A stretch of DNA of 64,000 nt from Corallococcus caeni (GCF_036245885.1 NZ_BTTX01000008.1); one strand, 5' to 3'; counted from the first letter of the stretch, positions 37,979-52,388 are shown. Made by a program: numbers and translations. The notes: generated by a model not told the origin, from the sequence alone.

Positions 37979-40900
37979 ATGACTCCGCACGACTCGGTCC
38001 TGCTGAAAGAGCTTCAGCGGCAACGCACCCGGTTGCTGGATTTGAGCGCAACCAACCGGCTCCTCCACTTCAAGCACACGGCCAGGACGTCGCTGCGAAT
38101 CGTGGATGAACTTCCAGGTGTCGTCTTCGAGCGGCTGAGCAACCACCGCGCGCTCACGTTCCTCCCGGTGACGCCACCGGAGCAGGACTCCGAGGAACAG
38201 GAGGACTTCGACCCCGCCGCCGCGACCGTGGTGTTCTCGATGACCGAGGAGGTCCCCAGCAAGGACGCCCGGCAGAAGCTGCTGCTTCAACAGGCGAAGC
38301 GGCTGGGCATCGACACCCGGTATGAGCTGCCCAAGGCGGCCCCCACGGAGAGCGGCACCCCTCCTCGCAAGCATCAGGACCGCCACCTGCAGACGTTGTA
38401 CTTCCCGGAGGATCTGGAGGGCCACCTGCACCGCCTCCAGGGGCTCGCGCAGACAGCCATCCAGGAGACCGGAGCCAACCTGCTCCACTTCGTCTTCGGG
38501 TTCCTGCGCTGGTACGAGTCTGGTGATACCCGGCAGGAGAAGCCGCGCAGCGCACCGCTCGTGCTCATGCCGGTGAGTCTCAAGCGCGGCCAGGCCCACC
38601 CTGACACCCAGGTACACGCTTACGAGGTCGACTACAACGAAGGCGAGTCCATCGAACTGAACCTCACGCTCCAGGAGAAGCTGAGGCAGGAGTTCGGCAT
38701 CACGCTGCCGACCTTCTCCGCCGAGGAAGGCCTGGAGGCGTACTTCGACAAGGTGACGGCGCTGCTCAAGGGCCTGCGCCCCGGGTGGGGGCTGGAGCGG
38801 CAGGTCACGCTGACACTGCTGTCCTTCGGGCGGCTCCTGATGTGGCGGGACCTGGAGCCCACCCGATGGCCGCAGAACAGTTCCCCGCTGGCCAACCCGC
38901 TCGTTCGCACGCTGATGGGAGGACAGGCGCAGGCGAATGAACCGGGAGGAGGCGCAGGAGGCGGAGGCGGCCTCAGGGAACGCCGAAGCGAGGTCTACGA
39001 CCTGGACTCGCCGGAGCTGAATCCTCCACCCCTCATCACGGACGCGGACAGCAGTCAGCACAGCGTGCTGGTGGACGTGCTCCGGGGTGAGAACCTGGTG
39101 GTGCAGGGACCGCCCGGCACCGGGAAGTCACAGACCATCACCAACCTCATCGGAGCGGCGCTGGCGGCGGGCAAGACCGTGCTGTTCGTCACGCAGAAGC
39201 TGGCGGCGCTGGAGGTCGTCTCACGCCGCCTCCAGCAGGCGGGGCTGGGTGAGTTCTGCCTGGAGCTGCACAGCCACAAGACCCAGAAGCAGCAGTTCAT
39301 GGAGGACCTGCGGCGAAGGCTCAACCTGGACGCAGGCGCGAGCGCTCCCCGGCCGCTCACCGAACAGGTCTCGAGCGCCGCAGGCATCCTGCGCGCGCAT
39401 ACCGAGCGGATGCACAAGCCATTCGGGGCGCTCGGCATGTCACCGCACGACGTGTTCTGGAAGGTCAGTCGCGCGGAGGCGGAGCTGGGAGAAGCAGTCG
39501 TCGAGTTGGAGGGCCTGCGCTTCGAGGGTGCGGAGACCATGTCCTCCACGGCGCTGGCGGAGGTCCGCGACACGGTTCGGGGCCTCGCTGCGCAGTTGGG
39601 GGACGTTCGCCGCGTCGCTCCCCTCCTCTGTGCCCACCCCTGGGCGGGGGTGACGAACGACGCGCTGACGGACAAGGACCGCCAGACACTCGTTCAACGG
39701 ATCTCGGCCTGGGAAGAGTCCACGCTGCTCCTGGAGAAGGCGCTGGCTGCGTTCACAGCCCGAACTGGCGTCACCCCCAGATCGAGCGTGCTTGCGGCGG
39801 ATACCCTGGTTTCCAACGTCCGGGTCCTTCCGCCCCTCCCGGAGGGGGCTCCTCCAGAGCTGATCCCTACCCTGCTTGATGCCACGCAGCGCGAGGGATT
39901 GCGCGCCCTGCTCGATGCCATCGAGTCGGTCCAGGCGCGGTGGGCGGGGCTGGAGGCGGGCTGGCGTGCCCGGGAGGATCTGACCGTACCCGCCGTGCGT
40001 GACGCGCAAGCCATCCTCGACACGGCCCTGCGCCTGCTTTCGCCAGACACCACGCTCGTCACGCTGACACGCGCGCATGAAGCGGTGGATGCAGCAGCCC
40101 GGGCCCTGGCACAGGGACGCCGGTTCATCGCCGCCGTGGCCTCATGCCTGGAGGTGGACGTCACGCCCTGGACGCCCCAGCAGCTCCAGACGTTTGTCCG
40201 CGTCGTCGAAGCGATGGCGGTCCTGGATGACGCCGCCCTGGAGTGGCGGGACGCGCGTTGGGTCGAGCGCGAGGCCGAGGAGTTGCTTCGGAAGGCCGGC
40301 AGCACCTGCTCGGAGCTGAAGGACCAGGCGCGAGCGCTCGCGGTGCGCTTCATGCCCGAACTCGTTCCTCCGCTCACGACGCTCAAGGCACATGCCGTCG
40401 CGGTTTCGACCGCGCCCTTCATCCCCTGGCTCTCGGGTGCATGGCGTGCGGCGAGGCGGGACTTCCAGGCCATGTCCCACGGCGTCCGTCCGACGCGGCC
40501 CGTGTTGCTCCAGGGTTACACCGACCTGCTGGCGCACCACGCGGCGCGGGAGCGATTCCACGAGGACGCGACCTTGAAAGCGACCCTGGGCGCTCGCTTC
40601 CAGGGAGTCGATACGCGTTTCGACCGGATTCTTTCGTGGTTGGACGCCTACCGGAACGTCGATGCATTGCTCCTTTCGCTGGGAGAGCGAGGGGCGGAAC
40701 TCCGCCGCGCGGTGTTGGAGCGGCCGGCGAGCCATTGGCAGGAGGCCCTGGCGAAGACCCGCGTGTGGAGTGACGAGTTGCTCCAGGCCCGCGACGTGAG
40801 CACTACCGTGCAGGAAGCCGCGACGCGCATGGGTCTGCCGCACGCACCCTGGAATACCGAACCCTGCGGCAAGGCCCAGGACAGCCTCGACGCCTTGCTG

Positions 40901-43183
40901 AAGCACCTGGGTGAGGTCCTGAGCTGGGCACGGAAGGGAGATGCCCCGCCGTCCTTGACCCTTTCCCAGCTCCAGGGACAGCTGCGCCGGGTGCGCGACG
41001 CCTGCGAAGCCGAGGACCGGCTGGAAGCGCATGCCCCGGCGGCGGGATTACCAGGGATTGAATACCGGGGTCGGAAGACGTCCCTCGCGGGCCCTCGAAG
41101 CGCCCTGCGCCATGTCGACGTCCTCTTCGCGGCGCCACTGCCCGAGGGGCTGGTGGAGTGGCTGCTGAGGAAGGACACGCCACGGAGGCACGCGGACCTG
41201 CTCACCGCCACGCATGACGTGGAGGTAGCTCTCACCGCCTATAGCCAGTCCGCCAGTCAGGCCTGGGAGCTGGGAAGGATGGCACCCGGCACCTGGGAGG
41301 AACCCGCCGCCGAGAAGCCACTCCAGGCGACGGTCATGCGCCTGCGCCAGGCTCGAAGCCAGTCCGCGACGCTCGCGGCCTGGTGCGCGTACCAACGGCA
41401 GAGGCGCGCCGTCGCGCGAGCGCGGAGCACCCTGGGGTTCCTGGAGCGCGTCGACACCCGTCCTGGCCTGAAGCCTGAGAGGTTGGTCACGGCCTTTGAC
41501 GCCGTCTTCTTCCGCTCCCTGGCGGAAGCCATCCTGCGAGACCAGCCGGAGCTCGATCAATTCACGGGCGCGGTTCACGCCTCCCAGCGTGAGGAGTTCG
41601 CCCGCCTGGACACGCATTGCATCGCAAAGCAGGGCCGATACCTGGCGCGTCAACTCAGTCAGCGTCCGGTTCCTCCCGGCGTGTCGTCGGCAAAGGTTGC
41701 GGGCATGACGGAGACGCATCTCCTGCGGCACGAGCTGGGCAAGAAGCAGCGGCACCTCCCAATTCGCGAGCTGGTGGCACGCGCCGGCAGTGCACTCCAG
41801 ACGTTGATGCCCTGCTTCATGATGGGGCCGCAGTCCGTCGCCCAATACCTGCCCGCCGGGCAGCTGACCTTCGACCTGGTCGTGATGGACGAGGCCAGCC
41901 AGATGCGTCCCGAGGACGCGCTGGGAGCCATTGCCCGAGGTCGGCAATTGGTGGTGGTGGGCGACCCGGAGCAGCTTCCTCCCACCAGCTTCTTCGCGCA
42001 GGTGGAGCAGGAGGACGTCGAAACCGAGGGCGAAGCGGGAGACGAGGTCCAGGGTCCATCCTTCCTGGAGGACTCGGAGAGCATCCTCACGGCGGCGGCG
42101 GAACGGTTTCCCATGCGCATGTTGCGTTGGCATTACCGGTCCCGCCACCCCTCGCTCATCGCCTTCAGCAACCGCGAGTTCTACAACGGCGACCTCATCA
42201 CCTTCCCCGCGCCCGGCGAGCAGTTGGACGGGCTGGGCCTCCACTTCCACCGCGTGGAGCAGGGATTGTACGAGTCCAACCGGAACGTTCCCGAGGCCCG
42301 CGAGGTGCTGGCGGCGGTGAAGGCGCATGCGCGTACGCGCCCGGAGCAGAGCCTGCTGGTCGTCACGTTGAACTCGAAGCAGCGAGAGCTCATCGACGAC
42401 CTGGTGACCGCCGAGGAGAAGAACGACGCGGCCCTCCGGGCCTTCCTGGCGAAGTGGGAGAAGTCCCCCATGCCCTTCGACGTGAAGAACCTGGAGAACG
42501 TCCAGGGCGACGAGCGCGACGCCATCTTCGTGTCGGTCACGTTCGGTCCCGACAAGAACGAGCGCTTCCGGATGAACTTCGGGCCCATCAATCAAGCGGA
42601 CGGGTACCGCCGGCTGAACGTCCTCTTCACGCGGGCGCGGTGCGCGCTGACGGTGTTCGCGTCCTTCGACCCGTCGGAGCTCAAGGTCCAGGAAAGCAGT
42701 CCCCGCGGGATGCGCGTCCTGCAGCGATACCTGTCCGAAGCCAAGGGAGAGAAGGTGGCGCACGGCGTGGGCAGCGGTCGGCCACCCGACTCCGACTTCG
42801 AGATTGCCGTCGCGAAGGCGCTCGTCGCGCGGGGATTCGAAGTGGTCCCGCAGGTGGGCGTCGCGGGTTATTTCATCGACATGGCCCTGCGGCATCCTCG
42901 GCAACCGGGCCGTTACGTCCTTGGCGTCGAGTGTGACGGAGAGAGGTATCACTCGTCACGTTCCGCCCGGGACCGGGACCGCCTCCGGGATCAGGTGCTG
43001 AAGGGCCTGGGATGGAGGCTGCACCGCATCTGGTCCACGGACTGGTTCCGCTCGCCATCGGAAGAGGTCGCCCGGATCGTCGCGCACGTTGAAGAGGTGC
43101 TTCGGGAAGAGGCGGCGGAGCTGCCGGCCGTGGTGCGCGAGGAGCCCGCGGCGGAGAACCAGATGCGCGCCGTCAGCGCCTGA
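37979..43183 (+). CDS. 1734-aa DNA helicase-related protein: DUF4011-like N-terminus, Upf1-like SF1 helicase core (AAA_11/AAA_12), DUF3320, and a C-terminal DUF559 (Vsr/restriction-endonuclease-like) nuclease
   Basis: Motif I VVQGPPGTGKSQTITNLIGAALAAGKTVLFVTQ, motif II LVVMDEASQ, VVVGDPEQLPPT, YRSRHPSLIAFSNREFYNGDL, and a C-terminal VPQVGVAGYFIDMALRHPRQPGRYVLGVECDGERYHSSRSARDRDRLRDQVLKGLGWRLHRIW (PD-(D/E)xK Vsr-like). GC is lower than the core by eye. Confidence 0.85.
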   Translation: MTPHDSVLLKELQRQRTRLLDLSATNRLLHFKHTARTSLRIVDELPGVVFERLSNHRALTFLPVTPPEQDSEEQEDFDPAAATVVFSMTEEVPSKDARQKLLLQQAKRLGIDTRYELPKAAPTESGTPPRKHQDRHLQTLYFPEDLEGHLHRLQGLAQTAIQETGANLLHFVFGFLRWYESGDTRQEKPRSAPLVLMPVSLKRGQAHPDTQVHAYEVDYNEGESIELNLTLQEKLRQEFGITLPTFSAEEGLEAYFDKVTALLKGLRPGWGLERQVTLTLLSFGRLLMWRDLEPTRWPQNSSPLANPLVRTLMGGQAQANEPGGGAGGGGGLRERRSEVYDLDSPELNPPPLITDADSSQHSVLVDVLRGENLVVQGPPGTGKSQTITNLIGAALAAGKTVLFVTQKLAALEVVSRRLQQAGLGEFCLELHSHKTQKQQFMEDLRRRLNLDAGASAPRPLTEQVSSAAGILRAHTERMHKPFGALGMSPHDVFWKVSRAEAELGEAVVELEGLRFEGAETMSSTALAEVRDTVRGLAAQLGDVRRVAPLLCAHPWAGVTNDALTDKDRQTLVQRISAWEESTLLLEKALAAFTARTGVTPRSSVLAADTLVSNVRVLPPLPEGAPPELIPTLLDATQREGLRALLDAIESVQARWAGLEAGWRAREDLTVPAVRDAQAILDTALRLLSPDTTLVTLTRAHEAVDAAARALAQGRRFIAAVASCLEVDVTPWTPQQLQTFVRVVEAMAVLDDAALEWRDARWVEREAEELLRKAGSTCSELKDQARALAVRFMPELVPPLTTLKAHAVAVSTAPFIPWLSGAWRAARRDFQAMSHGVRPTRPVLLQGYTDLLAHHAARERFHEDATLKATLGARFQGVDTRFDRILSWLDAYRNVDALLLSLGERGAELRRAVLERPASHWQEALAKTRVWSDELLQARDVSTTVQEAATRMGLPHAPWNTEPCGKAQDSLDALLKHLGEVLSWARKGDAPPSLTLSQLQGQLRRVRDACEAEDRLEAHAPAAGLPGIEYRGRKTSLAGPRSALRHVDVLFAAPLPEGLVEWLLRKDTPRRHADLLTATHDVEVALTAYSQSASQAWELGRMAPGTWEEPAAEKPLQATVMRLRQARSQSATLAAWCAYQRQRRAVARARSTLGFLERVDTRPGLKPERLVTAFDAVFFRSLAEAILRDQPELDQFTGAVHASQREEFARLDTHCIAKQGRYLARQLSQRPVPPGVSSAKVAGMTETHLLRHELGKKQRHLPIRELVARAGSALQTLMPCFMMGPQSVAQYLPAGQLTFDLVVMDEASQMRPEDALGAIARGRQLVVVGDPEQLPPTSFFAQVEQEDVETEGEAGDEVQGPSFLEDSESILTAAAERFPMRMLRWHYRSRHPSLIAFSNREFYNGDLITFPAPGEQLDGLGLHFHRVEQGLYESNRNVPEAREVLAAVKAHARTRPEQSLLVVTLNSKQRELIDDLVTAEEKNDAALRAFLAKWEKSPMPFDVKNLENVQGDERDAIFVSVTFGPDKNERFRMNFGPINQADGYRRLNVLFTRARCALTVFASFDPSELKVQESSPRGMRVLQRYLSEAKGEKVAHGVGSGRPPDSDFEIAVAKALVARGFEVVPQVGVAGYFIDMALRHPRQPGRYVLGVECDGERYHSSRSARDRDRLRDQVLKGLGWRLHRIWSTDWFRSPSEEVARIVAHVEEVLREEAAELPAVVREEPAAENQMRAVSA

Positions 43184-43196
43184 ACAGGAGACAACC

Positions 43197-44762
43197 ATGA
43201 CCACGATGATTGCCGTTGGACTGGGCGTATTGAGTCTGTTGCTCCTCGGGTTGTGGTTCCAGACACGAAGTCGGCTCAAGGCCGTCCAGGAGCGCTTCAA
43301 GCCCATCCTGGACCTGGAGGCCGAACGGCGGCGGGTGGCCGAGGAGTTGACGCGGGCGCGCACGGACGCGGACGCTGCGCTGGCCGCGGAGCAGAAGCGG
43401 GTCCGCGAAGAGTTGGCGAAAGCCAGGAGCGAGGCGGACAACGCGCTGGCGGCGGAGCAGAAGCGGGTGGAAACCCAGCTGGCCCGGGCCAAGGCGGACG
43501 TGGAGCAAGCCATCACGGCCGAACAGGGCCGGGCGAAGGCGGAGCTGAGCCGGATCCGTGAAGAGACGGCGAAGACAACCCAGAGCGCGACACGCGCCAT
43601 GGAAGAGGCGGAAGCGCGGCGAAAGCAGGCGAACACCGAGCGAACCAGCCTGGAGTCAGGCCTCGCCCGGTTGAAGGCCGAGCTGAAGGCCCTTGAGGAA
43701 GAGGAGGTCCTGCTCTCCTTTGGCTTCTACAAGCCGGTGTACGCCCTCTCGTCCGTGAAGGAATACGAGGACCGCCTGGAGAGGCTCCGCGATTCTCAGA
43801 AACAGATGCTGAAGAACAAGGAAGCCGCCACGTGCTCTCTCCAGTGGGAGGTCAATGGCAGCAAGGCGGAGGGCAAGAAGCAGACGGACCGTACCTTGAA
43901 GCTGATGCTCCGGGCCTTCAATGGCGAAGCGGATGCGTGTGTCGCGAAGGTTTCGTACAAGAACGTGAAGGCAATGGAGACGCGCATCGAGAAGGCAGCT
44001 GCCGCCATAAATGGCCTTGTGGAGATACAGCGGTGTGTCATCGACAGGCGCTACGTCAAGCTCAAGGTCGAGGAGCTGATGCTCGCATATGAGCACTCGG
44101 AGAAGGTGCAACAGGAGCGGGACGAACAGCGCCGCATCCGGGAGCAGATGCGAGAGGAGGAGGCCGCCCAGCGCGAGCTGGAGAAGGCGAAGCTGGAGGC
44201 GGAGCGCGAGTCGAAGCGTGACGCCGAGGCCCTGGCGAAGGCGAAGGCGGACTACGATCGGGCAAAGGGCTCCGAGCAGCAGAAGTTGCTGGAACGCATC
44301 GCCGAGCTGGAGCGCCGCGTGGCCGAAGACCTGGAGAAGCAGCGAGCCATCTCCCAGGCACAGCTCACGCGGACAGGGCACGTCTACGTCATCTCCAACA
44401 TCGGCTCCTTCGGGGAGGGCGTCTACAAGCTGGGGATGACGAGGAGGCTCGTGCCCCAGGACCGCATCGACGAGCTGGGGGATGCATCCGTGCCCTTCGA
44501 GTTCGACGTCCACGCCATCATCCGGACCTCGGATGCCCCGGCCCTGGAGAACGCACTCCACAAGACGTTCGCGAACAGGCGCGTCAACCGCATCAATGAG
44601 CGCAAGGAGTTCTTCCGCGTCAGCCTGGATGAGATCGCCCAGGCCGTGCGAAAGCACCACGGGGAGTTCGAGCTGACCCAGCTTGCTGAGGCCGCGGAGT
44701 ACCGTAAGACCTTGGCGCTCCAAGAGGAGGAGCAGGGCGGTCGACGCGAGCGGGCCGCTTGA
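43197..44762 (+). CDS. membrane-anchored DUF4041-like coiled-coil protein with a C-terminal T5orf172 (Mug113/GIY-YIG-like) nuclease domain
   Basis: An AGGAG RBS precedes the ATG at 43197. N-terminal TM helix (MTTMIAVGLGVLSLLLLGLWF), a long E/R/A/K coiled-coil, and a C-terminus GHVYVISNIGSFGEGVYKLGMTRRLVPQDRIDELGD...FEFDVHAIIRTSDAPALENALHKTFANRRVN typical of T5orf172. It starts 14 nt after the helicase stop. Confidence 0.8.
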   Translation: MTTMIAVGLGVLSLLLLGLWFQTRSRLKAVQERFKPILDLEAERRRVAEELTRARTDADAALAAEQKRVREELAKARSEADNALAAEQKRVETQLARAKADVEQAITAEQGRAKAELSRIREETAKTTQSATRAMEEAEARRKQANTERTSLESGLARLKAELKALEEEEVLLSFGFYKPVYALSSVKEYEDRLERLRDSQKQMLKNKEAATCSLQWEVNGSKAEGKKQTDRTLKLMLRAFNGEADACVAKVSYKNVKAMETRIEKAAAAINGLVEIQRCVIDRRYVKLKVEELMLAYEHSEKVQQERDEQRRIREQMREEEAAQRELEKAKLEAERESKRDAEALAKAKADYDRAKGSEQQKLLERIAELERRVAEDLEKQRAISQAQLTRTGHVYVISNIGSFGEGVYKLGMTRRLVPQDRIDELGDASVPFEFDVHAIIRTSDAPALENALHKTFANRRVNRINERKEFFRVSLDEIAQAVRKHHGEFELTQLAEAAEYRKTLALQEEEQGGRRERAA

Positions 44763-44802
44763 ACTCGAACCTGCCTGCGCTTCTGATAGCGTTCGCCTCC
44801 CG

Positions 44803-46560
44803 ATGAGTTCCTACCCGTTCCTGCATCCGAAGGATGCGCTCCCAAATGCTGTCATTGCTGCCTCTAAAAACCGGAAAATCGCGTTTCTAGTGGGCTCTCC
44901 CTTGTCGACGCAGGAACGAGCCGACGCCCCTCAGGTTCCTGGGGTGGATGCGATGTTGGATCTCATCCGCGAGTACGTTCCGGCCGGATTCCAAGCGAAA
45001 TTCGACACGGAGCGCGAGTACACCAAAGAAAACAAATACCAATGGGCCATGCGCTTCGTGCAAGGCCTTGGTGACAAGGATGTCTCCGAGAAGGTTGTTC
45101 GGGAGGCGGTGCTTCGCGCACGGGTGGACCGCCAACGCGATGGAGCGGCGACCGACGACCAGCTGGATCTGGACCATGGCGGATGGGCCTTGCCGCCCGC
45201 GACGGAGCACCTCGGTAGATTGCTGGTGGAAAGAGCTGAGACGTTTGGTCCTGTCTTGACCACGAACTTTGATCCTCTCATCTCGGCATCGGTGAAGGTG
45301 GCTGGCGGCGATTTCCATCGCACCATCGTGGCCAGCGACATCCCGTTCGGGCAGACAGTCCCCGCCTCATCCAAATCCACACACATCATCCATCTTCACG
45401 GCTACTGGCACCGTTCGCCTACGTTACACACGGGTATCCAGCTTGGTCGCGAGCGCAGACACGTCTCCGCAGAGCTGATCCAGATTCTTCAAGACCACAC
45501 GCTGGTCGTGATCGGGTACGGCGGGTGGGATGACGTCTTCACCCAGACCCTCGCAACCATTGACATCGACCGACACAAGGACGTCGACATCCTCTGGGGG
45601 TTCTACGGAGAAGAAGACGCCGTGATTGAGGCCCGCAATCCAAATCTCTTCAGCAGAGTCGCCAATCTGAGAGGTAGCAAAGGGCTTCGCTGCTATGGCG
45701 GAATCGACTGCCATAAGTTCTTCCCCGACCTGCGGAAACAATTTGGCGCGGCCAGCGCCCAGCTCTCGAACCCTCGAACCGCGGGCCAACCGACACCGCC
45801 ACCCTCCACGCGATCCGACACAAGCGCCAAAGCCACGGTGCAGACTGCGCCGACGTCGCACAGCCCCCCGAAACCTCCTGAGCCCGCGCCACCCGTGCCG
45901 GCTGGCTCAACGCCAGCGCCGAGCACCGCGACTGTCACGGTCTCCCCAGTCATCACGGTCTCTCCTGTCATCCAAGTCCCAGCACCGCCTGTTACACCGA
46001 GTCGTTCGGGCTCCAGTCGGCTCGCGGTCGTCATCGCGGGAGGGGTGATCGCAGGGGGGATTGCCGTGGTCTCGCAGCGACCTGAAAGCGGCAAGGGATC
46101 ACCACCGCTGACGGATGTGCGTCCCATCGAGCAGCCACCTTCCGCCTTCGTGCCCATCGCTCCAGGTGCACAGATCAGGTCTGTGCGCCAGCAGCACCAG
46201 GTCGTGCCTGCGTCAGAATCCGAGCGTGGATCGCGGATCGCTCAGCTTCCGAGAGGTCGCTACGCCTTCCTTCGGCTGGATTCGATTCCGACCTACAACG
46301 CCAACACTCCGACCTACGGGAACCTGCCAGACGGAATCGAGGTTCACCGTGTACGAGCCACTGGCGAACTCTTCCTCGTTGGCTATGCCGAACCTCAAAC
46401 CGTTACGGCGCTCGCATCTACAACCCCCGCGCCCATCGTTCTCGCGGCCACGCCAGGAGGACGGCGCACCCAGGTTGCGAGCGTTCCTGTGATCAGGATG
46501 TCAACGGCCGAAGTGCGGATGGACAAAAGCACCCGCGTTCTCGTGCTTCAACTCAACTAA
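44803..46560 (+). CDS. SIR2_2-type (Sir2-like NADase fold) domain protein with a TM segment and a Pro-rich C-terminal region
   Basis: SIR2_2 hallmarks IAFLVGSPLS, VLTTNFDPLIS, IIHLHGYW and LVVIGYGGWDD. A TM helix (LAVVIAGGVIAGGIAVV) follows. GC is markedly lower (~58% by eye) with atypical codons (aaa, gat, ttg). Confidence 0.75.
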   Translation: MSSYPFLHPKDALPNAVIAASKNRKIAFLVGSPLSTQERADAPQVPGVDAMLDLIREYVPAGFQAKFDTEREYTKENKYQWAMRFVQGLGDKDVSEKVVREAVLRARVDRQRDGAATDDQLDLDHGGWALPPATEHLGRLLVERAETFGPVLTTNFDPLISASVKVAGGDFHRTIVASDIPFGQTVPASSKSTHIIHLHGYWHRSPTLHTGIQLGRERRHVSAELIQILQDHTLVVIGYGGWDDVFTQTLATIDIDRHKDVDILWGFYGEEDAVIEARNPNLFSRVANLRGSKGLRCYGGIDCHKFFPDLRKQFGAASAQLSNPRTAGQPTPPPSTRSDTSAKATVQTAPTSHSPPKPPEPAPPVPAGSTPAPSTATVTVSPVITVSPVIQVPAPPVTPSRSGSSRLAVVIAGGVIAGGIAVVSQRPESGKGSPPLTDVRPIEQPPSAFVPIAPGAQIRSVRQQHQVVPASESERGSRIAQLPRGRYAFLRLDSIPTYNANTPTYGNLPDGIEVHRVRATGELFLVGYAEPQTVTALASTTPAPIVLAATPGGRRTQVASVPVIRMSTAEVRMDKSTRVLVLQLN

Positions 46561-46566
46561 AAGACA

Positions 46567-47247
46567 ATGAAACTCACCCATCGAATCCTTACTTGCCTTG
46601 GCTTGGCGTCCTTCTTGTTGCTTGCCGCATGTGGGCCCGAGGACCTCAGCCCCGGCGGCCCCGACCCCATCACGGATGACCCGCCTCCGCTCACCGAGCT
46701 TTGTACCGCGGAGAGCTGTGAAGGCTGCTGCGACCCAACCACCAACAAGTGCGTCATGACTCGCACCGCCGACGCATGCGGTCCGAACGGCAGCACCTGT
46801 TCCAAGTGCACAACCGGGATGATGTGCCACCCTTCCAAGCAGCAGTGCTACACCCCCACCATCCGCACGAAGATCCAGCCCCTTCGTGCGCAGATCGCGC
46901 CGCTGGATCCCTCTGACAACAGCGACTGGGACGTTGATGGCTCGCCGCCGGATGTCGTGATTCAGCTGTCGTGCCCCAACACGCCAGCCGCCGTACCCCC
47001 TTCGGAGGAAGTTGAGAGCTTCACCCCCACCTGGACGAAGGGCTCATGCGACGTCCTCAGTACCGATCTGCTTTCGGCCCCCATCCAGTTCACCGTCATT
47101 GATGTTGACGCCATCTTCGACGACCCGATTGCGTCGGCGCAGTACCAGATGACCCGCGCCGACATCGACCGTGGCGTCGTGGAGCTCACGGGTTCGAGTG
47201 CATTGCTCTCCGTGGCCTTCCAGGTCACCACCTACTACGCCGAATAG
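46567..47247 (+). CDS. Cys-rich lipoprotein (paralogue of the gene at 51768..52388)
   Basis: Lipobox LLLAACG. An N-terminal Cys-rich module (CTAESCEGCCDPTTNKCV...CSKCTTGMMC). The C-terminal domain has DWDVDGSPPDV. It starts 7 nt after the SIR2-like stop. Confidence 0.7.
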   Translation: MKLTHRILTCLGLASFLLLAACGPEDLSPGGPDPITDDPPPLTELCTAESCEGCCDPTTNKCVMTRTADACGPNGSTCSKCTTGMMCHPSKQQCYTPTIRTKIQPLRAQIAPLDPSDNSDWDVDGSPPDVVIQLSCPNTPAAVPPSEEVESFTPTWTKGSCDVLSTDLLSAPIQFTVIDVDAIFDDPIASAQYQMTRADIDRGVVELTGSSALLSVAFQVTTYYAE

Positions 47248-47330: not shown

Positions 47331-47518
47331 AGCCGCTACTCCTCACGAGGGATGCACAGGAGGAGTGAAACCGGTCAGAACCCTCTCCTCTACTTGGAGA
47401 TGAGGACTCACCCCTCCTCCTCCCTGCGGTTGAATCTTCCCATCATCTCCACGTCCGGAAGGGACGGGAGTCGTTGGCACCGCGGGCCAGTCCACGCGAG
47501 CCATTTCTGGGGGAGCGC

Positions 47519-48886
47519 ATGTCCAATCAGAGCTTCGAGGTCATCTCGGTCCCACCTCAGCCACGGCGGGTCATTCTGGTCTCGATTGATTGGACGCGCG
47601 ACAAGGATCCTCGCCTTCCGCTGGGACATGCTTCCATCGTCGCGGCACTGCGACATGCAAACGTCGACGTGCGAGCGTTCTCCTTTGCCGTCAATCGCTC
47701 TGACTTCAGTGAGGAGCACATCCTGTGGAGCGTGCTTGAAAGTGCACGGGGACTTGAGGCTCGGGACGTGGACCTGGGCCTTGGCGTCTACGTGTGGAAC
47801 GACCGGGTGGTGAAGAGGCTTCTGGGGGCGGTCCGCCGGAGCGGATTCGCGGGACGTATCATCCTCGGAGGGCCACAGGTCTCCTACGCGGGACCGGGCC
47901 TTGAGCAGCTCTATCCCGAGGCGGATGGATTCGTCCGGGGTTATGGCGAAGAGGCCATGGTGGCGATTGCCGCTACGTCCGAGCGGGTCCGGTTTCCAGG
48001 AGTCCATTGGGCTGGCCAGTTGGATGCTGGCGTCCAAGCACAGGCGAAGCTGGAGACGCTTGCTTCTCCCTTCCTCGAAGACGTGATTGAACTTTCAGGG
48101 GAGCAACGGTTCATCCGGTGGGAAACCCAGCGAGGGTGTCCCTTCCGCTGCTCGTTCTGCCAGCATCGGGAGGCTGGCAGCCGGTTGCGTCGCCGCGATC
48201 TCCCCATGGCACGACTTGAGGAAGAGATTGAGCTGTTCGTGTACTCGGGAGTGAACGACATCGCCGTGCTGGATCCGCTCTTCAATCTCGGGGATCACGC
48301 GCTGGCGGTGCTGCGGACTTTCCAGCGGCTTGACTATCGCGGACGGCTATCTTTGCAGTGCCACTTCTCGACGTTGGATGATGAGTTCCTCGACGCCTGC
48401 GAAGGGCTCGCGGTCCGGCTTGAGTTTGGCCTGCAGACCATCCACGAGAAGGAGGCACGCGCCGTGGAGCGCGTGAATCATCTCGAGAAGGTGGTGGAAG
48501 GAGTCCGCAAGCTCCACGCGCGCGGCATCCCTTTCGAGGTTTCCATCATCTTCGGGCTGCCCGAGCAGACGTTGGAGTCCTTTCGACAAACGGTCGACTT
48601 CTGCCTCCGTCGGCAAGTGCCCGTGCTCAAGGCGTTTCCCCTCATGTTGCTACGGGGAACCCAACTGGAACGTGAGCGGGCACGATGGGGGCTGGAGGAG
48701 AATGACGCCCCCATCCCAAGCGTCATCCGCAGCCACACGTTCAATGAACAGGAGTGGAGTCGGATGGAGGCGCTCGCGGAAGCACTCCGCCAGACTGAAG
48801 GCAGGCATCCGGATTGTGTCGAAGCCTTGGAGGTGCGGGTGGTCTCCCTTCCGGACACTTCCGGCTGGTGGTCACCAGCGGCATAG
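47519..48886 (+). CDS. B12-binding-domain radical SAM enzyme
   Basis: An N-terminal Rossmann-like B12-binding region, the CxxxCxxC motif (QRGCPFRCSFCQH), and a TIM-barrel-like remainder. The ATG at 47519 follows GGGGGAGCGC. Confidence 0.85.
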   Translation: MSNQSFEVISVPPQPRRVILVSIDWTRDKDPRLPLGHASIVAALRHANVDVRAFSFAVNRSDFSEEHILWSVLESARGLEARDVDLGLGVYVWNDRVVKRLLGAVRRSGFAGRIILGGPQVSYAGPGLEQLYPEADGFVRGYGEEAMVAIAATSERVRFPGVHWAGQLDAGVQAQAKLETLASPFLEDVIELSGEQRFIRWETQRGCPFRCSFCQHREAGSRLRRRDLPMARLEEEIELFVYSGVNDIAVLDPLFNLGDHALAVLRTFQRLDYRGRLSLQCHFSTLDDEFLDACEGLAVRLEFGLQTIHEKEARAVERVNHLEKVVEGVRKLHARGIPFEVSIIFGLPEQTLESFRQTVDFCLRRQVPVLKAFPLMLLRGTQLERERARWGLEENDAPIPSVIRSHTFNEQEWSRMEALAEALRQTEGRHPDCVEALEVRVVSLPDTSGWWSPAA

Positions 48887-49005
48887 GGACCTGACGGCAG
48901 CTACGCCTCGACAGGCGGCTTGGTGCGGGTCATGTAGCTTCATGCGGTCAGTGTCCCCTTATGATGCCGGAGGGGGACGGGCATCAGTGGGTATGATGCA
49001 GGGCC

Positions 49006-50457: not shown

Positions 50458-51769
50458 CGCGGACCTTCTCGGGCTCGGGCGCAGCGCTCATCTTCCAGAG
50501 CAGCGCGCCGCCTCCGAGCAGGCTCCCCAGACCCACTGCCGCCGCGAGGATCCAGCCTCGTCTCAAGCAGGGCCGTGCCTGGGTCTCCGGATCGTCGCTC
50601 GCGGTGATCTGCTGGAGGAGCTGGGCCACCTGCCGCGGTGTCACCGGCTCACCCTCCGAGCGGATGAACTGCTCCAGTTCCTCCCGGAACACGTGGCAGT
50701 CCGGGTAGCGCTGGTCCCGATCCTTCGCGAGCGCCCGGGCGAGGATGGCTCGCAGGACTCCGGGCAGGTCCGGGCGGTGCTGCTCGGCGGGCACCATGGG
50801 CTCGGACATGACGGCCCGAGGCAAGTCCCATTCGGACGTGGACGAAAAGGGCCTGCGCGTGGTGAGCAACTCGTAGAGCACCACCCCGAGCGCGTAGACG
50901 TCGACCCGCCGGTCCACCCGCTCGCCCCTTATCTCCTCGGGCGCCATGTACACGTAGCTGCTCATGACGGGGAGCGGGTGTTCGGGGGTCCACCGGGACC
51001 GGAGATGGTCGATGCCGAAGTCCACCACCTTGGTCGTCCCCTGACGCGACAGGAGGACGTTGTACGGCCGGAGGCAGCGGTGGATGAGCCTCAGCGGCTC
51101 GTGCGTCTCGGGGTGGGTCAGGTCGTGGGCATAGGCGAGCCCCTCGCAGGCTTGCGAGATGATGCGCGCGCACAGCGTCGCCGGCAGGGTCATCCGCTGG
51201 ACCGCCAGGTGCTGGATCAACCTGCTCAGGCTGATCCCATCGACGTGCTCCCTGGCGAGGAAGTACGTGCCGTCCGCCTCACCGAAATCAAAGACCTTCA
51301 CGAGGTGCGGGTGCGTGAGCCGGGCGGCGGTCCTCGCCGTGTCGAGGAACAGCTCCGGGAACTCCATCTGCTCGGCCATGTCCGGCCGGAGGCACTGGAG
51401 CACCAGCGTCTTCTCGATGCCCAGCGGGCCAGCGGCCTTGGCCAGATGGTCCTCGATGATGCCTTCGGCGAGCAGGCGGATGCGCTGGTATTGGCCGACG
51501 TGGGATGTCACGAGACAGATGAATAGCAGATCGCCGATCTCATCGAGCGCTGGCAGGGAACGGGGCGTGCCACGCGACGATGGAGCCTGGACGGACCCAT
51601 GGCTACACGGGGTGGCGCCATGAAGCTCGACCTCGTCGTGCTGTTCACCGCAGGCAACGACAACCACGTCGCCATCTGGCGGAAGTTCCGTGAGGATCTG
51701 CTGCCCCGATACATCCTGGCCGCGGTCACCGCGAAGTGAACCCCCTCTGATAGCCTTCCCGGCCGTCAT
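50444..51769 (-). CDS. Ser/Thr-kinase-fold protein with degenerate catalytic motifs (predicted pseudokinase), a C-terminal TM segment and a short tail
   Basis: The kinase fold is recognisable (YQRIRLLAEG...; HPHLVKVFDFGE; VVDFG; YMAPEEI; DVYALGVVLYELLT). However, the Gly loop is A-E-G-I-I-E, the beta3 Lys is Leu (TLVLQ), and HRD is H-R-C (LIHRCLRPYN). The ATG at 51769 overlaps the divergent lipoprotein ATG (CATG); an internal GTG start is possible. Confidence 0.6.
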   Translation of the reverse strand: MTAGKAIRGGSLRGDRGQDVSGQQILTELPPDGDVVVVACGEQHDEVELHGATPCSHGSVQAPSSRGTPRSLPALDEIGDLLFICLVTSHVGQYQRIRLLAEGIIEDHLAKAAGPLGIEKTLVLQCLRPDMAEQMEFPELFLDTARTAARLTHPHLVKVFDFGEADGTYFLAREHVDGISLSRLIQHLAVQRMTLPATLCARIISQACEGLAYAHDLTHPETHEPLRLIHRCLRPYNVLLSRQGTTKVVDFGIDHLRSRWTPEHPLPVMSSYVYMAPEEIRGERVDRRVDVYALGVVLYELLTTRRPFSSTSEWDLPRAVMSEPMVPAEQHRPDLPGVLRAILARALAKDRDQRYPDCHVFREELEQFIRSEGEPVTPRQVAQLLQQITASDDPETQARPCLRRGWILAAAVGLGSLLGGGALLWKMSAAPEPEKVRATPP

Positions 51770-52388
51770 GAAAACGCCCTGCCTGCTCCTGATGGCCCTG
51801 TCGTGCGCCCTCTTCCTCCCGGCCTGCGGTGAGCCCGAGTGCACTCCGGAGAGCTGCGCGAATGGCTGCTGCTCCGTGAGCAACGTGTGCGTTCTCGACC
51901 TCGGCGACGCCCTCTGCGGCTCCAACGGCGCCCGCTGTGAGAGCTGTCCCGACGGCAATGTCTGTCGGCTCGATACCCGGGCCTGTTACGCGGGCGTGAT
52001 GCGGACGCGGGTGCAGCCCCGCCGGGCCTTCATCGCGGACGTCGATCCGGACAACGGCGAGGACTGGGATTCCGACGGCTCCCCGCCCGACGTCGTCGTG
52101 GAGATGCGCTGCCCCTCCGCTCCGGAGCGCACCCGCACCGCCGAGGACGAGAGCTGGGAGCCCGAATGGCGCTCGGGCAGCTGTGAGGTCATCACGTCCA
52201 ACCTCCTCCAGCACCCCATCGAAATCTCCATCTTCGACAACGATGACTTCACCTTCGATGACGAGTTCGGCGGAACCTCCTACCAGGTCACCCGCGCGGA
52301 TCTGAACAGGGGCCACATCGAGCTCGCGTTTCCTCCCATCGTGGAGTCCCTGGTCATCGACCTGACCCACACCTATTCGCCCCAATGA
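51768..52388 (+). CDS. Cys-rich lipoprotein (paralogue of the gene at 46567..47247)
   Basis: MKTPCLLLMALSCALFLPACG lipobox. The same Cys-rich N-module and a C-domain with DWDSDGSPPDV and YQVTRADLNRGHIEL, matching YQMTRADIDRGVVEL in the paralogue. Confidence 0.7.
   Translation: MKTPCLLLMALSCALFLPACGEPECTPESCANGCCSVSNVCVLDLGDALCGSNGARCESCPDGNVCRLDTRACYAGVMRTRVQPRRAFIADVDPDNGEDWDSDGSPPDVVVEMRCPSAPERTRTAEDESWEPEWRSGSCEVITSNLLQHPIEISIFDNDDFTFDDEFGGTSYQVTRADLNRGHIELAFPPIVESLVIDLTHTYSPQ

What the first reader, a model, noticed from the sequence alone, without database searches (positions are those of the whole stretch)
43197..46560. Translationally linked pair: membrane-anchored DUF4041/T5orf172 nuclease-like protein and a SIR2_2 NADase-fold protein
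The T5orf172 gene starts 14 nt after the helicase stop and has a strong AGGAG RBS. The SIR2-like gene follows 40 nt later, and the lipoprotein gene starts 7 nt after SIR2. Both T5orf172 (GIY-YIG-like) and SIR2 domains are recurrent effector domains of abortive-infection-type systems (established for Thoeris ThsA, DSR and SIR2-HerA). The T5orf172 protein has an N-terminal TM helix and a ~300-aa coiled coil, and the SIR2 protein has a TM segment plus a Pro-rich tail. This suggests a membrane-located sensor/effector pair, and the combination may constitute an undescribed system.
Basis: partly seen in the sequence, partly recalled or inferred. Interest (0 to 1): 0.65.

Follow-up and report, generated by a model that had tools for sequence, protein, structure and literature searches.

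The report
SNIPE nuclease beside SIR2–lipoprotein module
The two genes are real but probably not partners: the first is a copy of the known phage-DNA-cutting defence protein SNIPE, and the second belongs with the lipoprotein gene after it, in a two-gene membrane module of myxobacteria for which I found no published description.

Summary
The coordinates, gene spacings, ribosome-binding site and domain calls are correct. The window comes from Corallococcus caeni.

The T5orf172/DUF4041 gene (43197-44762) is a full-length homologue of PD-Lambda-1, now called SNIPE. SNIPE is a characterised single-gene defence: a membrane-anchored GIY-YIG nuclease that cuts phage DNA during injection. The window protein keeps its catalytic glutamate.

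The T5orf172–SIR2 pairing recurs only in the matching chromosomal locus of four other Corallococcus species. SIR2 relatives outside that genus lack it. SNIPE homologues in E. coli, Hymenobacter, Leptospira and Bacillus have no SIR2 neighbour.

The conserved partner of the SIR2 gene (44803-46560) is the downstream lipoprotein (46567-47247). This lipoprotein has a cysteine-rich segment and a C2-fold domain. The SIR2 protein reads: SIR2 domain, proline-rich linker, one transmembrane helix, then a folded 130-residue C-terminal domain that is probably periplasmic.

In other myxobacteria the same helix-plus-domain unit is fused to TIR, PNP or FAD/NAD-Rossmann domains instead of SIR2. In every fused-effector case examined, a lipoprotein homologue follows directly.

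This effector swapping points to a two-gene, envelope-spanning conflict module. I infer that it senses something outside the cytoplasm and depletes NAD+; this is not shown. I found no published description of it.

The parts
37979..43183 (+). Context gene: Hhe-like DUF4011 superfamily-1 helicase fused to an MTES_1575 nuclease domain (1734 aa). Probably a separate single-gene defence.
   Evidence: Pfam DUF4011, AAA_11, AAA_12 and MTES_1575. PADLOC PDC-S37 E=0 and Hhe E=3e-279. NCBIfam Hhe_antiphage scores 1402 bits, below its 2000-bit cut-off.
43186..43190 (+). AGGAG ribosome-binding site, 6 nt before the ATG of the SNIPE homologue.
   Evidence: Read directly from the sequence.
43197..44762 (+). 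SNIPE / PD-Lambda-1 homologue (521 aa): N-terminal transmembrane helix, long helical region, DUF4041, C-terminal GIY-YIG (T5orf172) nuclease.
   Evidence: PADLOC PD-Lambda-1 E=1e-153, covering profile positions 51-477 of 496. 43% identical over full length to E. coli SNIPE.
43203..43259 (+). Transmembrane anchor of the SNIPE homologue (residues about 3-21).
   Evidence: Kyte-Doolittle maximum of 2.2 over 19 residues. Same position as in SNIPE (PMC13190303).
43899..44066 (+). DUF4041 core (residues 235-290). In SNIPE this is the DNA- and tape-measure-protein-binding domain.
   Evidence: Pfam PF13250 E=1e-20. Function taken from PMC13190303.
44376..44654 (+). GIY-YIG / T5orf172 nuclease domain (residues 394-486). 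The catalytic Glu451 codon is at 44547-44549.
   Evidence: Pfam PF10544 E=4e-18. E451 aligns with SNIPE E414 in an invariant column.
44803..46560 (+). SIR2-linker-TM-CTD protein (585 aa). First gene of the conserved two-gene module.
44803..45765 (+). Cytoplasmic SIR2 (SIR2_2) domain, residues 1-321. Invariant Asn155 (codon 45265-45267, motif TTNFD) and His199 (codon 45397-45399, motif LHG).
   Evidence: Pfam SIR2_2, 32 bits. Invariant columns. Best Foldseek PDB matches are defence NADases: SPARSA SIR2, SIR2/HerA, KomC, DSR2 and ThsA.
45766..46014 (+). Proline-rich linker predicted to be disordered (residues about 322-404).
   Evidence: pLDDT below 50 across residues 322-452. Variable in length and sequence among homologues.
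46015..46077 (+). Single transmembrane helix (residues about 405-425).
   Evidence: Kyte-Doolittle maximum of 2.08. A helix at this position is conserved in all family members.
46159..46557 (+). Conserved C-terminal domain (CTD), residues 453-585. Alpha+beta fold, inferred to be periplasmic. No Pfam family.
   Evidence: pLDDT 84-95. No Pfam match at E<=5 and no PDB sequence match. Found behind SIR2, TIR, PNP or FAD/NAD-Rossmann domains in other proteins.
46567..47247 (+). Cysteine-rich C2-domain lipoprotein (226 aa). Second gene of the module. Lipobox LAAC with Cys22 (codon 46630-46632), ten invariant Cys in residues 46-94, C2 domain in residues 98-226.
51768..52388 (+). Second C2-lipoprotein paralogue (41% identical). 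It sits in tandem with the first in C. sicarius and C. praedator, and is separated here by a roughly 4.5-kb insertion.

Best explanation
The interval holds two neighbouring but separate defence units inside a Corallococcus defence island, which reads Hhe-like helicase, SNIPE, SIR2 module.

(1) Gene 43197-44762 is a SNIPE (PD-Lambda-1) homologue. By homology it is an inner-membrane-anchored GIY-YIG nuclease that acts alone and cuts phage DNA as it is injected.

(2) Gene 44803-46560 works with the lipoprotein gene 46567-47247, not with SNIPE. Its product has a cytoplasmic SIR2 NADase-type domain, a flexible proline-rich linker, one transmembrane helix and a folded extracytoplasmic domain (CTD). 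The partner is a disulfide-rich lipoprotein with a C2 (Ca2+/lipid-binding type) domain.

Shown here:
- The helix-plus-CTD unit and the lipoprotein are a conserved gene pair.
- The cytoplasmic domain is swapped among SIR2, TIR, PNP and FAD/NAD-Rossmann domains.

Inferred:
- The CTD and the lipoprotein form a periplasmic sensor of an envelope event, such as phage adsorption or DNA injection, or envelope damage.
- That event switches on the cytoplasmic effector. Here the effector would hydrolyse NAD+ through Asn155 and His199, stopping growth or killing the infected cell.
For: SNIPE identity:
- PADLOC PD-Lambda-1 E=1e-153.
- The architecture (TM, DUF4041, T5orf172) matches the published one (PMC13190303; PMC9519451).
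- The E. coli homologue L108 carries all nine residues named in the SNIPE paper. The window protein is 43% identical to it, and catalytic E414 aligns with window E451 in an invariant column.
- SNIPE homologues in four phyla have no SIR2 neighbour.

SIR2-lipoprotein pairing. A lipoprotein homologue (E=1e-26 to 1e-41) follows directly in each of these settings:
- Corallococcus, four species.
- Myxococcus faecalis and two related metagenome contigs.
- An unrelated context, L084/L085.

Effector swapping:
- A search with the CTD alone against 1.8 billion representative proteins gave 17 genuine hits.
- These carry SIR2_2, PNP_UDP_1 (one also with EAD5), TIR_2, an FAD/NAD Rossmann domain, or no extra domain.
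- The TIR, the two PNP and the FAD versions are each followed by a lipoprotein homologue.
- Junctions are tight: 6 nt here, 0 nt in L093, and 4-nt overlaps in L084 and L094.

Effector type:
- The SIR2 fold is closest to defence NADases.
- Asn155 and His199 are invariant.
- The nearest SIR2 sequences outside the family are fused to NB-ARC/TPR STAND proteins.

Compartment:
- The SIR2 protein has no signal peptide.

Context:
- Defence or conflict genes lie next to every instance: Hhe, SNIPE and PDC-M51A here; Imm11, Imm52, AHH and PemK elsewhere.
- Sequence identity is discordant along the island: SNIPE 86-91% against SIR2 48-68%. That argues for separate units.
Against: - No functional data exist for the SIR2 module. 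NADase activity, topology, CTD-lipoprotein contact and any anti-phage effect are all inferred.
- The family is rare (17 representatives). Every taxonomically labelled instance but one is a myxobacterium, so the number of independent contexts is small, about eight. The exception is a truncated sequence labelled as a Hymenobacter MAG.
- The lipoprotein family also has stand-alone members with no CTD gene upstream: the window paralogue at 51768-52388 and loci L096, L097 and L101. Two CTD-only proteins have no lipoprotein nearby.
- In two lineages a nuclease-type gene sits just upstream: SNIPE in Corallococcus and an HSDR_N protein in Myxococcus. Some cooperation with an upstream nuclease therefore cannot be excluded.
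- Helicase, SNIPE, SIR2 and lipoprotein are close-packed on one strand with no predicted terminator, so co-transcription is possible.
- The CTD-versus-lipoprotein distance correlation is only r=0.35 between lineages.
Confidence: 0.6

Rival explanations
1. One reading: the T5orf172 protein and the SIR2 protein form one membrane-located sensor/effector pair, a new two-gene system.
For: - The genes are adjacent, co-oriented and 40 nt apart.
- Both proteins are membrane-anchored.
- The adjacency is kept in four other Corallococcus species.
Against: - The T5orf172 protein is a SNIPE homologue, and SNIPE is sufficient alone in E. coli (PMC13190303).
- The adjacency is found only in one syntenic locus of one genus.
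- No T5orf172 gene lies within the available flanks of five full-length SIR2 relatives outside the genus (three in one syntenic Myxococcus-like lineage), or within about 10 kb of 76 distant SIR2 domains.
- Four distant SNIPE loci have no SIR2.
- The two genes diverge at very different rates: 86-91% against 48-68% identity.
Confidence: 0.07
2. The SIR2-TM-CTD plus C2-lipoprotein pair is real but is not anti-phage. It could be an envelope-stress or cell-cell conflict module, for example responding to toxins from neighbouring myxobacteria, to predation or to outer-membrane exchange. It could also be a regulatory NAD-dependent enzyme controlled from the periplasm.
For: - Other instances lie among polymorphic-toxin and immunity genes (Imm11, Imm52, AHH, PemK) and myxobacterial paralogous families.
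- One version carries EAD5, a domain described from conflict systems of multicellular bacteria (PMC7159879).
- Every taxonomically labelled instance except one truncated sequence is from social myxobacteria.
- The lipoprotein family has stand-alone members.
Against: - In this window the neighbours are phage-defence genes: Hhe-like helicase, SNIPE and PDC-M51A.
- SIR2_2, TIR and PNP domains are best known as anti-phage effectors.
- The SIR2 fold matches defence NADases rather than deacetylases.
- A CTD-only homologue sits in a phage-type lysis cassette, which links the domain to phage biology.
Confidence: 0.25
3. The helicase, SNIPE, SIR2 protein and lipoprotein act together as one multi-gene system specific to Corallococcus.
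For: - The four co-oriented genes have spacers of 13, 40 and 6 nt and no predicted terminator.
- The order is conserved in C. coralloides, C. sicarius and C. praedator, and in part in C. interemptor.
Against: - Hhe and SNIPE are each recognised single-gene systems (PMC13190303; PMC12278908).
- The SIR2-lipoprotein pair occurs without either of them elsewhere.
- Divergence rates along the locus are discordant.
Confidence: 0.05
4. The SIR2 protein is a toxin and the lipoprotein is its immunity protein, a toxin-antitoxin or polymorphic-toxin pair.
For: - The two-gene arrangement is tight.
- Toxin and immunity genes lie nearby in some loci.
Against: - The lipoprotein stays about 40% identical whatever the effector is: SIR2, TIR, PNP or FAD-type. 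An immunity protein should change with its toxin.
- It is exported and disulfide-rich, while the effector has no signal peptide. The two would be in different compartments.
- The variable domain is N-terminal, unlike delivered polymorphic toxins.
Confidence: 0.03

Closest known systems
SNIPE / PD-Lambda-1 (Vassallo et al. 2022, PMC9519451; Saxton et al. 2026, PMC13190303)
   Same: Gene 43197-44762 has the same architecture: an N-terminal transmembrane helix, DUF4041 and a C-terminal GIY-YIG nuclease. It is 43% identical to E. coli SNIPE and the catalytic Glu is conserved. It matches the PADLOC family profile at E=1e-153.
   Different: It has a longer helical region after the transmembrane helix, about 40 extra residues. 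It is chromosomal, in a 65-70% GC myxobacterium, and sits directly after an Hhe-like helicase. Host factors such as ManYZ and the phage targets are unknown here.
SIR2-effector defence systems (Thoeris ThsA, DSR1/DSR2, SIR2-HerA, SPARSA SIR2-APAZ, KomC/HAM-SIR2, Avs5 SIR2-STAND)
   Same: The fold is of the SIR2_2 type and these are its best structural matches. The Asn and His positions are conserved. The closest SIR2 sequences outside the family are SIR2-NB-ARC/TPR fusions.
   Different: None of their sensor or partner parts is present: no SLOG domain, ThsB, HerA, pAgo/APAZ, STAND NTPase or DSR2-type repeat domain. Instead there is a transmembrane helix, an extracytoplasmic domain and a lipoprotein partner.
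Membrane-associated phage sensors (Zorya ZorAB, Kiwa KwaA; also SNIPE itself)
   Same: The proposed logic is the same: detect infection at the cell envelope rather than in the cytoplasm.
   Different: There is no sequence or domain similarity. Those systems use ion-channel-like or multi-pass proteins and DNA-targeting effectors. This one has a single-pass protein with an NAD+- or nucleotide-degrading domain and a C2 lipoprotein.
Effector-swapping conflict systems of multicellular bacteria (Kaur et al. [quoted passage not shown]
   Same: It shares the effector repertoire (TIR, PNP, SIR2), and one family member carries EAD5. It occurs in a multicellular bacterial lineage. The organisation is a constant module plus a variable effector.
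   Different: System 4 is an EACC1 transmembrane protein plus a caspase-type protein. Neither the CTD nor a C2 lipoprotein is mentioned in that paper or in its sequel.
Two-component phage spanins (inner-membrane i-spanin plus outer-membrane lipoprotein o-spanin). This resemblance comes from my own knowledge and was not tested as homology.
   Same: The topology pairs an N-in/C-out single-pass inner-membrane protein with a lipoprotein. A CTD-only homologue sits just after an endolysin and a holin-like gene in a Corallococcus chromosome.
   Different: The CTD is an alpha+beta domain, not a coiled coil. The lipoprotein is large and has a C2 fold. No sequence similarity to known spanins was found (PHROGs: no hit).

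Membership tests
SNIPE / PD-Lambda-1 | Family-level sequence match over most of the protein | tested here: met
   PADLOC PDLC03977 E=1e-153, residues 91-514 against profile positions 51-477 of 496. 43% identical to E. coli SNIPE over the full length.
SNIPE / PD-Lambda-1 | N-terminal single transmembrane anchor | tested here: met
   Hydrophobic segment at residues 3-21, Kyte-Doolittle 2.2. 59% of published homologues have one TM within the first 70 residues (PMC13190303).
SNIPE / PD-Lambda-1 | Central DUF4041 domain | tested here: met
   PF13250 E=1e-20, residues 235-290.
SNIPE / PD-Lambda-1 | C-terminal GIY-YIG nuclease with the catalytic Glu (E414 in E. coli) | tested here: met
   PF10544 E=4e-18. 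E414 aligns with window E451 in an invariant column.
SNIPE / PD-Lambda-1 | Acts alone and cleaves phage DNA during injection | not testable with these tools
   Experimental property, reported in PMC13190303. Indirect support: the homologues in L108-L111 have no conserved partner gene.
Thoeris (ThsA/ThsB) | SIR2 fused to a SLOG domain, with an adjacent TIR protein ThsB | tested here: not met
   SIR2_2 is the only Pfam hit in the protein. The neighbours are SNIPE and a C2 lipoprotein. No TIR gene lies in 36-52 kb.
DSR1/DSR2 | N-terminal SIR2 followed by a large cytoplasmic repeat sensor domain, about 1000 aa in total | tested here: not met
   The protein is 585 aa. After the SIR2 domain come a disordered linker, a transmembrane helix and a 130-residue domain.
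SIR2-HerA | Adjacent HerA-type ATPase | tested here: not met
   No HerA gene is present. The DUF87 hit in the SNIPE homologue (21.6 bits, below the 23.2-bit cut-off) falls in its helical region.
SPARSA (SIR2-APAZ plus short pAgo) | APAZ domain and an adjacent short Argonaute | tested here: not met
   The PADLOC pAgo and Aga_SIR2 matches (E=1e-8 to 5e-5) cover only the SIR2 core, residues 143-271. No Argonaute gene is nearby.
Avs5 / SIR2-STAND | SIR2 fused to a STAND NTPase (NB-ARC/NACHT) and repeats | tested here: not met
   There is no NTPase domain. However, the closest SIR2 domains outside the family carry PF00931, PF25199 and TPR.
Hhe (neighbouring helicase) | Full-length match above the curated family threshold | tested here: inconclusive
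   PADLOC Hhe E=3e-279, but PDC-S37 scores better. NCBIfam Hhe_antiphage scores 1402 bits against a 2000-bit cut-off, and ProA scores 1123 against 1500.
Proposed effector-TM-CTD plus C2-lipoprotein module (defined here) | C-terminal transmembrane helix plus conserved CTD | tested here: met
   My CTD HMM scores E=1.6e-48 in the window. Family alignment.
Proposed effector-TM-CTD plus C2-lipoprotein module (defined here) | Cys-rich C2 lipoprotein gene immediately downstream on the same strand | tested here: met
   Window spacer of 6 nt. True in all eight contexts with a fused effector or a partial CTD that were examined. Not true of two CTD-only proteins.
Proposed effector-TM-CTD plus C2-lipoprotein module (defined here) | Physical CTD-lipoprotein interaction and signal-dependent effector activation | not testable with these tools
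   No complex prediction or experiment was available. The mirror-tree correlation is weak between lineages, r=0.35.

The most novel reading that the evidence does not exclude
The SIR2-TM-CTD protein and the C2 lipoprotein may form an immune sensor that spans the cell envelope. A periplasmic domain, held by or guarding an outer-membrane C2 lipoprotein, would detect phage attack at the envelope. The signal would pass through one transmembrane helix to an interchangeable cytoplasmic effector that degrades NAD+ or nucleotides (SIR2, TIR or PNP). Phage-encoded CTD-only proteins, such as the one in a Corallococcus lysis cassette, would then be either the evolutionary source of the sensor domain or decoys that disarm it.
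Probability: 0.3. Interest if true: 0.8.

Novelty: new variant of a known kind. Interest (0 to 1): 0.6.

Why it matters
The SNIPE call is ordinary, though it extends a newly characterised defence to myxobacteria.

The SIR2 module would matter if it is real. Known SIR2, TIR and PNP defence effectors are triggered by cytoplasmic sensors: STAND NTPases, Argonautes, helicases or signalling nucleotides. An effector wired through one helix to an extracytoplasmic domain and a C2 lipoprotein would be a different route. It would sense at the envelope and cause metabolic shutdown inside the cell.

It would also give a function to a bacterial C2-domain lipoprotein. And it would be a tractable example of effector swapping in social bacteria, where altruistic cell death has clear population-level logic.

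Tried and rejected
- Searching for T5orf172 next to SIR2 relatives. tblastn of all window island proteins against 80 genome loci gave PD-Lambda-1 hits only in the four syntenic Corallococcus loci.
- Identifying the CTD fold. It has no Pfam match at E<=5 and no PDB sequence-profile hit at E<=10. The full-length model searched against PDB returns only SIR2-domain matches. Against viral structures (BFVD) nothing is significant.
- Widening the CTD family with a word-indexed profile search. This returned only four short extra proteins.
- Looking for the CTD in phages. There was no tblastn hit in 50,697 phage genomes.
- Extending the prophage-like locus L114 upstream. The upstream 481-aa protein has no phage match, and PHROGs recognises only the endolysin.
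- Metagenome scan with the lipoprotein alignment. It returned only 13 loci, mostly short contigs. One has a CTD upstream, and three longer ones show stand-alone lipoproteins.
- Two hits of the CTD search, P0130 and P0145, were rejected as repeat or composition artefacts.
- Promoter and terminator scan of 37.5-49.2 kb. It was uninformative: no promoter-like sites, and fewer terminator-like sites than in shuffled sequence.
- Mirror-tree co-evolution of CTD and lipoprotein. The overall r=0.92 is confounded by phylogeny, and r is 0.35 between lineages. I did not use it as evidence.
- Literature. Ten full-text searches found no description of a SIR2/TIR/PNP-TM-domain plus C2-lipoprotein module. 'System 4' of Kaur et al. 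was read and is different. A search for 'ProA' with DUF4011 found nothing.

Full report
**Observation**

The window is high-GC (about 70%), dipping to 61-65% across 43-49 kb. The lipoprotein encoded at 46567-47247 is 100% identical to Corallococcus caeni ASNO1_67160, so the window comes from that myxobacterium.

On the + strand, in order, lie these genes:
- an ABC-F ATPase gene, ending at 37795;
- a 1734-aa helicase gene (37979-43183);
- the T5orf172 gene (43197-44762);
- the SIR2 gene (44803-46560);
- a lipoprotein gene (46567-47247);
- a B12/radical-SAM gene (47474-48886).

The spacers are 13, 40 and 6 nt. AGGAG lies 6 nt before the T5orf172 ATG. Both proteins have one strongly hydrophobic helix.

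Two details need correcting.
- The 40-nt gap before the SIR2 gene is not translational coupling.
- The SIR2 protein does not end in a proline-rich tail. The proline-rich stretch is a disordered linker before the helix, and a well-folded 130-residue domain follows the helix.

**The T5orf172 gene is a SNIPE homologue**

It matches the PADLOC PD-Lambda-1 profile at E=1e-153 over nearly the whole profile. PD-Lambda-1 was found as a single-gene system in an E. coli selection. [quoted passage not shown]

It has since been characterised as SNIPE. A transmembrane helix holds it at the inner membrane, DUF4041 binds DNA and phage tape-measure protein, and the GIY-YIG domain cuts phage DNA during injection. 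The E414A mutation abolishes defence (PMC13190303).

A tblastn search of plasmids found homologues at 47-59% identity in Hymenobacter, Leptospira, E. coli, Salmonella, Bacillus and Klebsiella. The E. coli one (L108) carries all nine residues named in the SNIPE paper at the stated positions, so it serves as the reference sequence. The window protein is 43% identical to it over the full length. E414 aligns with window E451 in an invariant column.

All sequence-testable features of the family are met. In four distant hosts the gene has no SIR2 neighbour.

**The helicase**

It matches PADLOC PDC-S37 (E=0) and Hhe (E=3e-279). It matches NCBIfam Hhe_antiphage at 1402 bits, below the 2000-bit cut-off. 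Hhe (HheA) is listed as a DUF4011 helicase defence in PADLOC and DefenseFinder (PMC11232893, PMC12278908). I treat the window gene as an Hhe-like neighbour and not part of the finding.

**Is the T5orf172-SIR2 pairing conserved?**

Full-length relatives of the SIR2 protein occur in many Corallococcus species (47-70% identity), in Myxococcus faecalis (35%) and on a few metagenome contigs. Beyond these, only the SIR2 domain is shared, mostly fused to NB-ARC/TPR STAND proteins.

I fetched 80 genome loci and searched them with all the island proteins. The order ABC-F, helicase, SNIPE, SIR2, lipoprotein is kept in C. coralloides and C. praedator. In C. sicarius the order from the helicase onwards is kept. 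In C. interemptor it is kept in part, because the contig is short. All lie at the same chromosomal position. None of the other 76 loci has a SNIPE homologue.

Identity to the window differs sharply along the locus:

| Gene | Identity to window |
|---|---|
| ABC-F | 96-98% |
| SNIPE | 86-91% |
| Helicase | 69-89% |
| Lipoprotein | 54-76% |
| SIR2 | 48-68% |

Outside Corallococcus, the M. faecalis gene and two related contigs have an HSDR_N-domain gene upstream instead of SNIPE. A further contig has no co-oriented upstream gene. So the pairing is a feature of one syntenic locus in one genus.

**The conserved partner is the lipoprotein**

In each of those loci the gene directly after SIR2 is a homologue of the window lipoprotein, at 38-43% identity and E=1e-26 to 1e-41.

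The lipoprotein has these features:
- a lipobox (LAAC, Cys22);
- ten invariant cysteines in residues 46-94, plus two more in the C-terminal domain;
- an invariant set of aspartates.

The SIR2 protein has no signal peptide. Its SIR2 domain therefore stays in the cytoplasm, and the domain after the helix (the CTD) should face the periplasm. This topology is inferred, not shown.

**Effector swapping**

I searched the CTD alone against 1.8 billion representative proteins. Nineteen hits came back, two of which are repeat artefacts.

The 17 genuine hits all have a hydrophobic helix followed by the CTD at the C-terminus, but their N-terminal parts differ:

| N-terminal part | Number | Proteins |
|---|---|---|
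| SIR2_2 | 5 | P0003, P0011, P0133, P0135, P0143 |
| PNP_UDP_1 | 3 | one also carries EAD5 |
| TIR_2 | 1 | P0138 |
| FAD/NAD(P)-type Rossmann | 2 | P0140, P0141 |
| No extra domain, or a fragment | 6 | includes P0131, P0142 |

I looked up the contigs for the TIR version, two PNP versions and one FAD-type version. In every case the next gene is a homologue of the Cys-rich C2 lipoprotein, at E=1e-29 to 1e-40. For the TIR version the contig ends inside that gene, and its cysteine-rich N-terminus matches. The junctions are 0 nt, a 4-nt overlap, or up to about 120 nt.

Together with the SIR2 lineages and one partial metagenome locus, that makes eight separate contexts. All eight have the lipoprotein, and none outside Corallococcus has SNIPE.

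A constant module with interchangeable NAD+- or nucleotide-targeting domains is the usual signature of immune or conflict systems. The neighbours elsewhere fit that reading: Imm11, Imm52, AHH, PemK.

**The effector**

The SIR2 model's best solved-structure matches are defence NADases: SPARSA SIR2, SIR2/HerA, KomC, DSR2 and ThsA. The Asn of TTNFD (N155) and the His of LHG (H199) are invariant in the family. From my own knowledge, these correspond to the residues needed for NAD+ hydrolysis in ThsA and DSR2.

None of the partner or sensor parts that define Thoeris, DSR, SIR2-HerA, SPARSA or Avs5 is present. The protein therefore works like those effectors but belongs to none of those systems.

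**Mechanism proposed**

Shown:
- the gene pair is conserved;
- the effector domain is swapped;
- the fold assignments hold;
- the catalytic-type residues are conserved.

Inferred:
- The CTD and the C2 lipoprotein form an extracytoplasmic sensor.
- An envelope event changes their interaction or the clustering of the single-pass protein. Candidates are phage adsorption or DNA injection, or damage.
- That change activates the cytoplasmic domain, which here consumes NAD+ and causes growth arrest or death.

I put about 0.8 on 'SNIPE stands alone and SIR2 pairs with the lipoprotein', and about 0.45 on the anti-phage NAD+-depletion mechanism.

**Caveats**

- The lipoprotein family is wider than the module. 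A second paralogue lies at 51768-52388. It is in tandem with the first in C. sicarius and C. praedator. Here the two are separated by an insertion carrying the radical-SAM gene, an unknown ORF and a kinase gene.
- Three metagenome lipoproteins have no CTD gene upstream.
- The family is rare and, with one exception, every taxonomically labelled instance is a myxobacterium. The exception is the truncated P0010, labelled as a Hymenobacter MAG.
- In two lineages a nuclease-type gene precedes SIR2 (SNIPE, HSDR_N). This may be coincidence within defence islands, but it is unexplained.

**An unexplained lead**

The best CTD hit outside the effector-fused proteins is P0131, 190 aa, made of a helix plus the CTD only and 44% identical to the window CTD. 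It lies in a Corallococcus chromosome two genes after a GH19 endolysin and directly after a multi-helix holin-like gene. The endolysin is 63.5% identical to that of Myxococcus phage Mx1.

That is the position of a spanin or a lysis-cassette accessory gene. No C2 lipoprotein is nearby. No CTD homologue was found in sequenced phages or in IMG/VR. It may be a phage decoy of the sensor domain, or a hint that the CTD came from a phage envelope-spanning protein.

**Novelty**

- PADLOC (2023) has no model for the lipoprotein, and only SIR2-core matches for the SIR2 protein.
- NCBIfam and Pfam have nothing for the CTD or the lipoprotein.
- Ten full-text literature searches found no description. The nearest concept, 'System 4' of Kaur et al., has different components.
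- The searched library is incomplete, so prior description cannot be excluded.

I rate the finding as a new variant of a known kind: an NAD+- or nucleotide-degrading effector coupled to a sensor, where the sensor is new.

Noticed in passing
window 47474-50457 (and 50444-51958 on the minus strand): The B12-binding radical-SAM gene matches the PADLOC candidate PDC-M51A at E=2e-152, but the following 483-aa ORF matches nothing. Together with a membrane-anchored Ser/Thr kinase gene, these form an insertion between the two C2-lipoprotein paralogues. The radical-SAM gene is present in C. interemptor and absent in C. sicarius and C. praedator.
   Followed up: partly
L114 6570-8573 (Corallococcus chromosome CP114039.1): A helix-plus-CTD-only protein (P0131, 44% identical to the window CTD) sits just after a phage-type GH19 endolysin (63.5% identical to phage Mx1) and a holin-like gene, in the position of a spanin or lysis-cassette accessory gene. 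No C2 lipoprotein is nearby.
   Followed up: partly
L081 8768-9976; L086 3902-5134; L087 282-1517: In the Myxococcus-like lineage, a 402-411-aa HSDR_N (restriction-enzyme N-terminal, nuclease-like) gene directly precedes the SIR2 gene. SNIPE holds that position in Corallococcus. The HSDR_N protein has only a weak PADLOC hit (PDC-M02B, E=6e-4).
   Followed up: partly
window 37979-47247 compared with L001, L003 and L004: Adjacent genes differ greatly in divergence between Corallococcus species: ABC-F 96-98%, SNIPE 86-91%, helicase 69-89%, lipoprotein 54-76%, SIR2 48-68%. This suggests fast evolution or exchange of the SIR2-lipoprotein unit. No dN/dS analysis was done.
   Followed up: no
L088 4005-5654 (proteins P0016 and P0033): A related SIR2 protein has the same proline-rich linker and transmembrane helix but a different C-terminal extracytoplasmic domain. 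It has no lipoprotein gene after it and lies next to a phage-type integrase. This suggests that the sensor domain can be swapped as well.
   Followed up: no
L109 4054-4539; L110 4423-4671: SNIPE homologues on Hymenobacter and Leptospira plasmids are each preceded by a small gene annotated 'NINE protein'. This may be a recurrent partner in those lineages.
   Followed up: no
window 37979-43183: The helicase scores below the curated cut-offs of both NCBIfam Hhe_antiphage (1402 of 2000 bits) and antiphage_ProA (1123 of 1500 bits). It matches PADLOC PDC-S37 best. It may belong to a sister family of Hhe rather than to Hhe proper.
   Followed up: no
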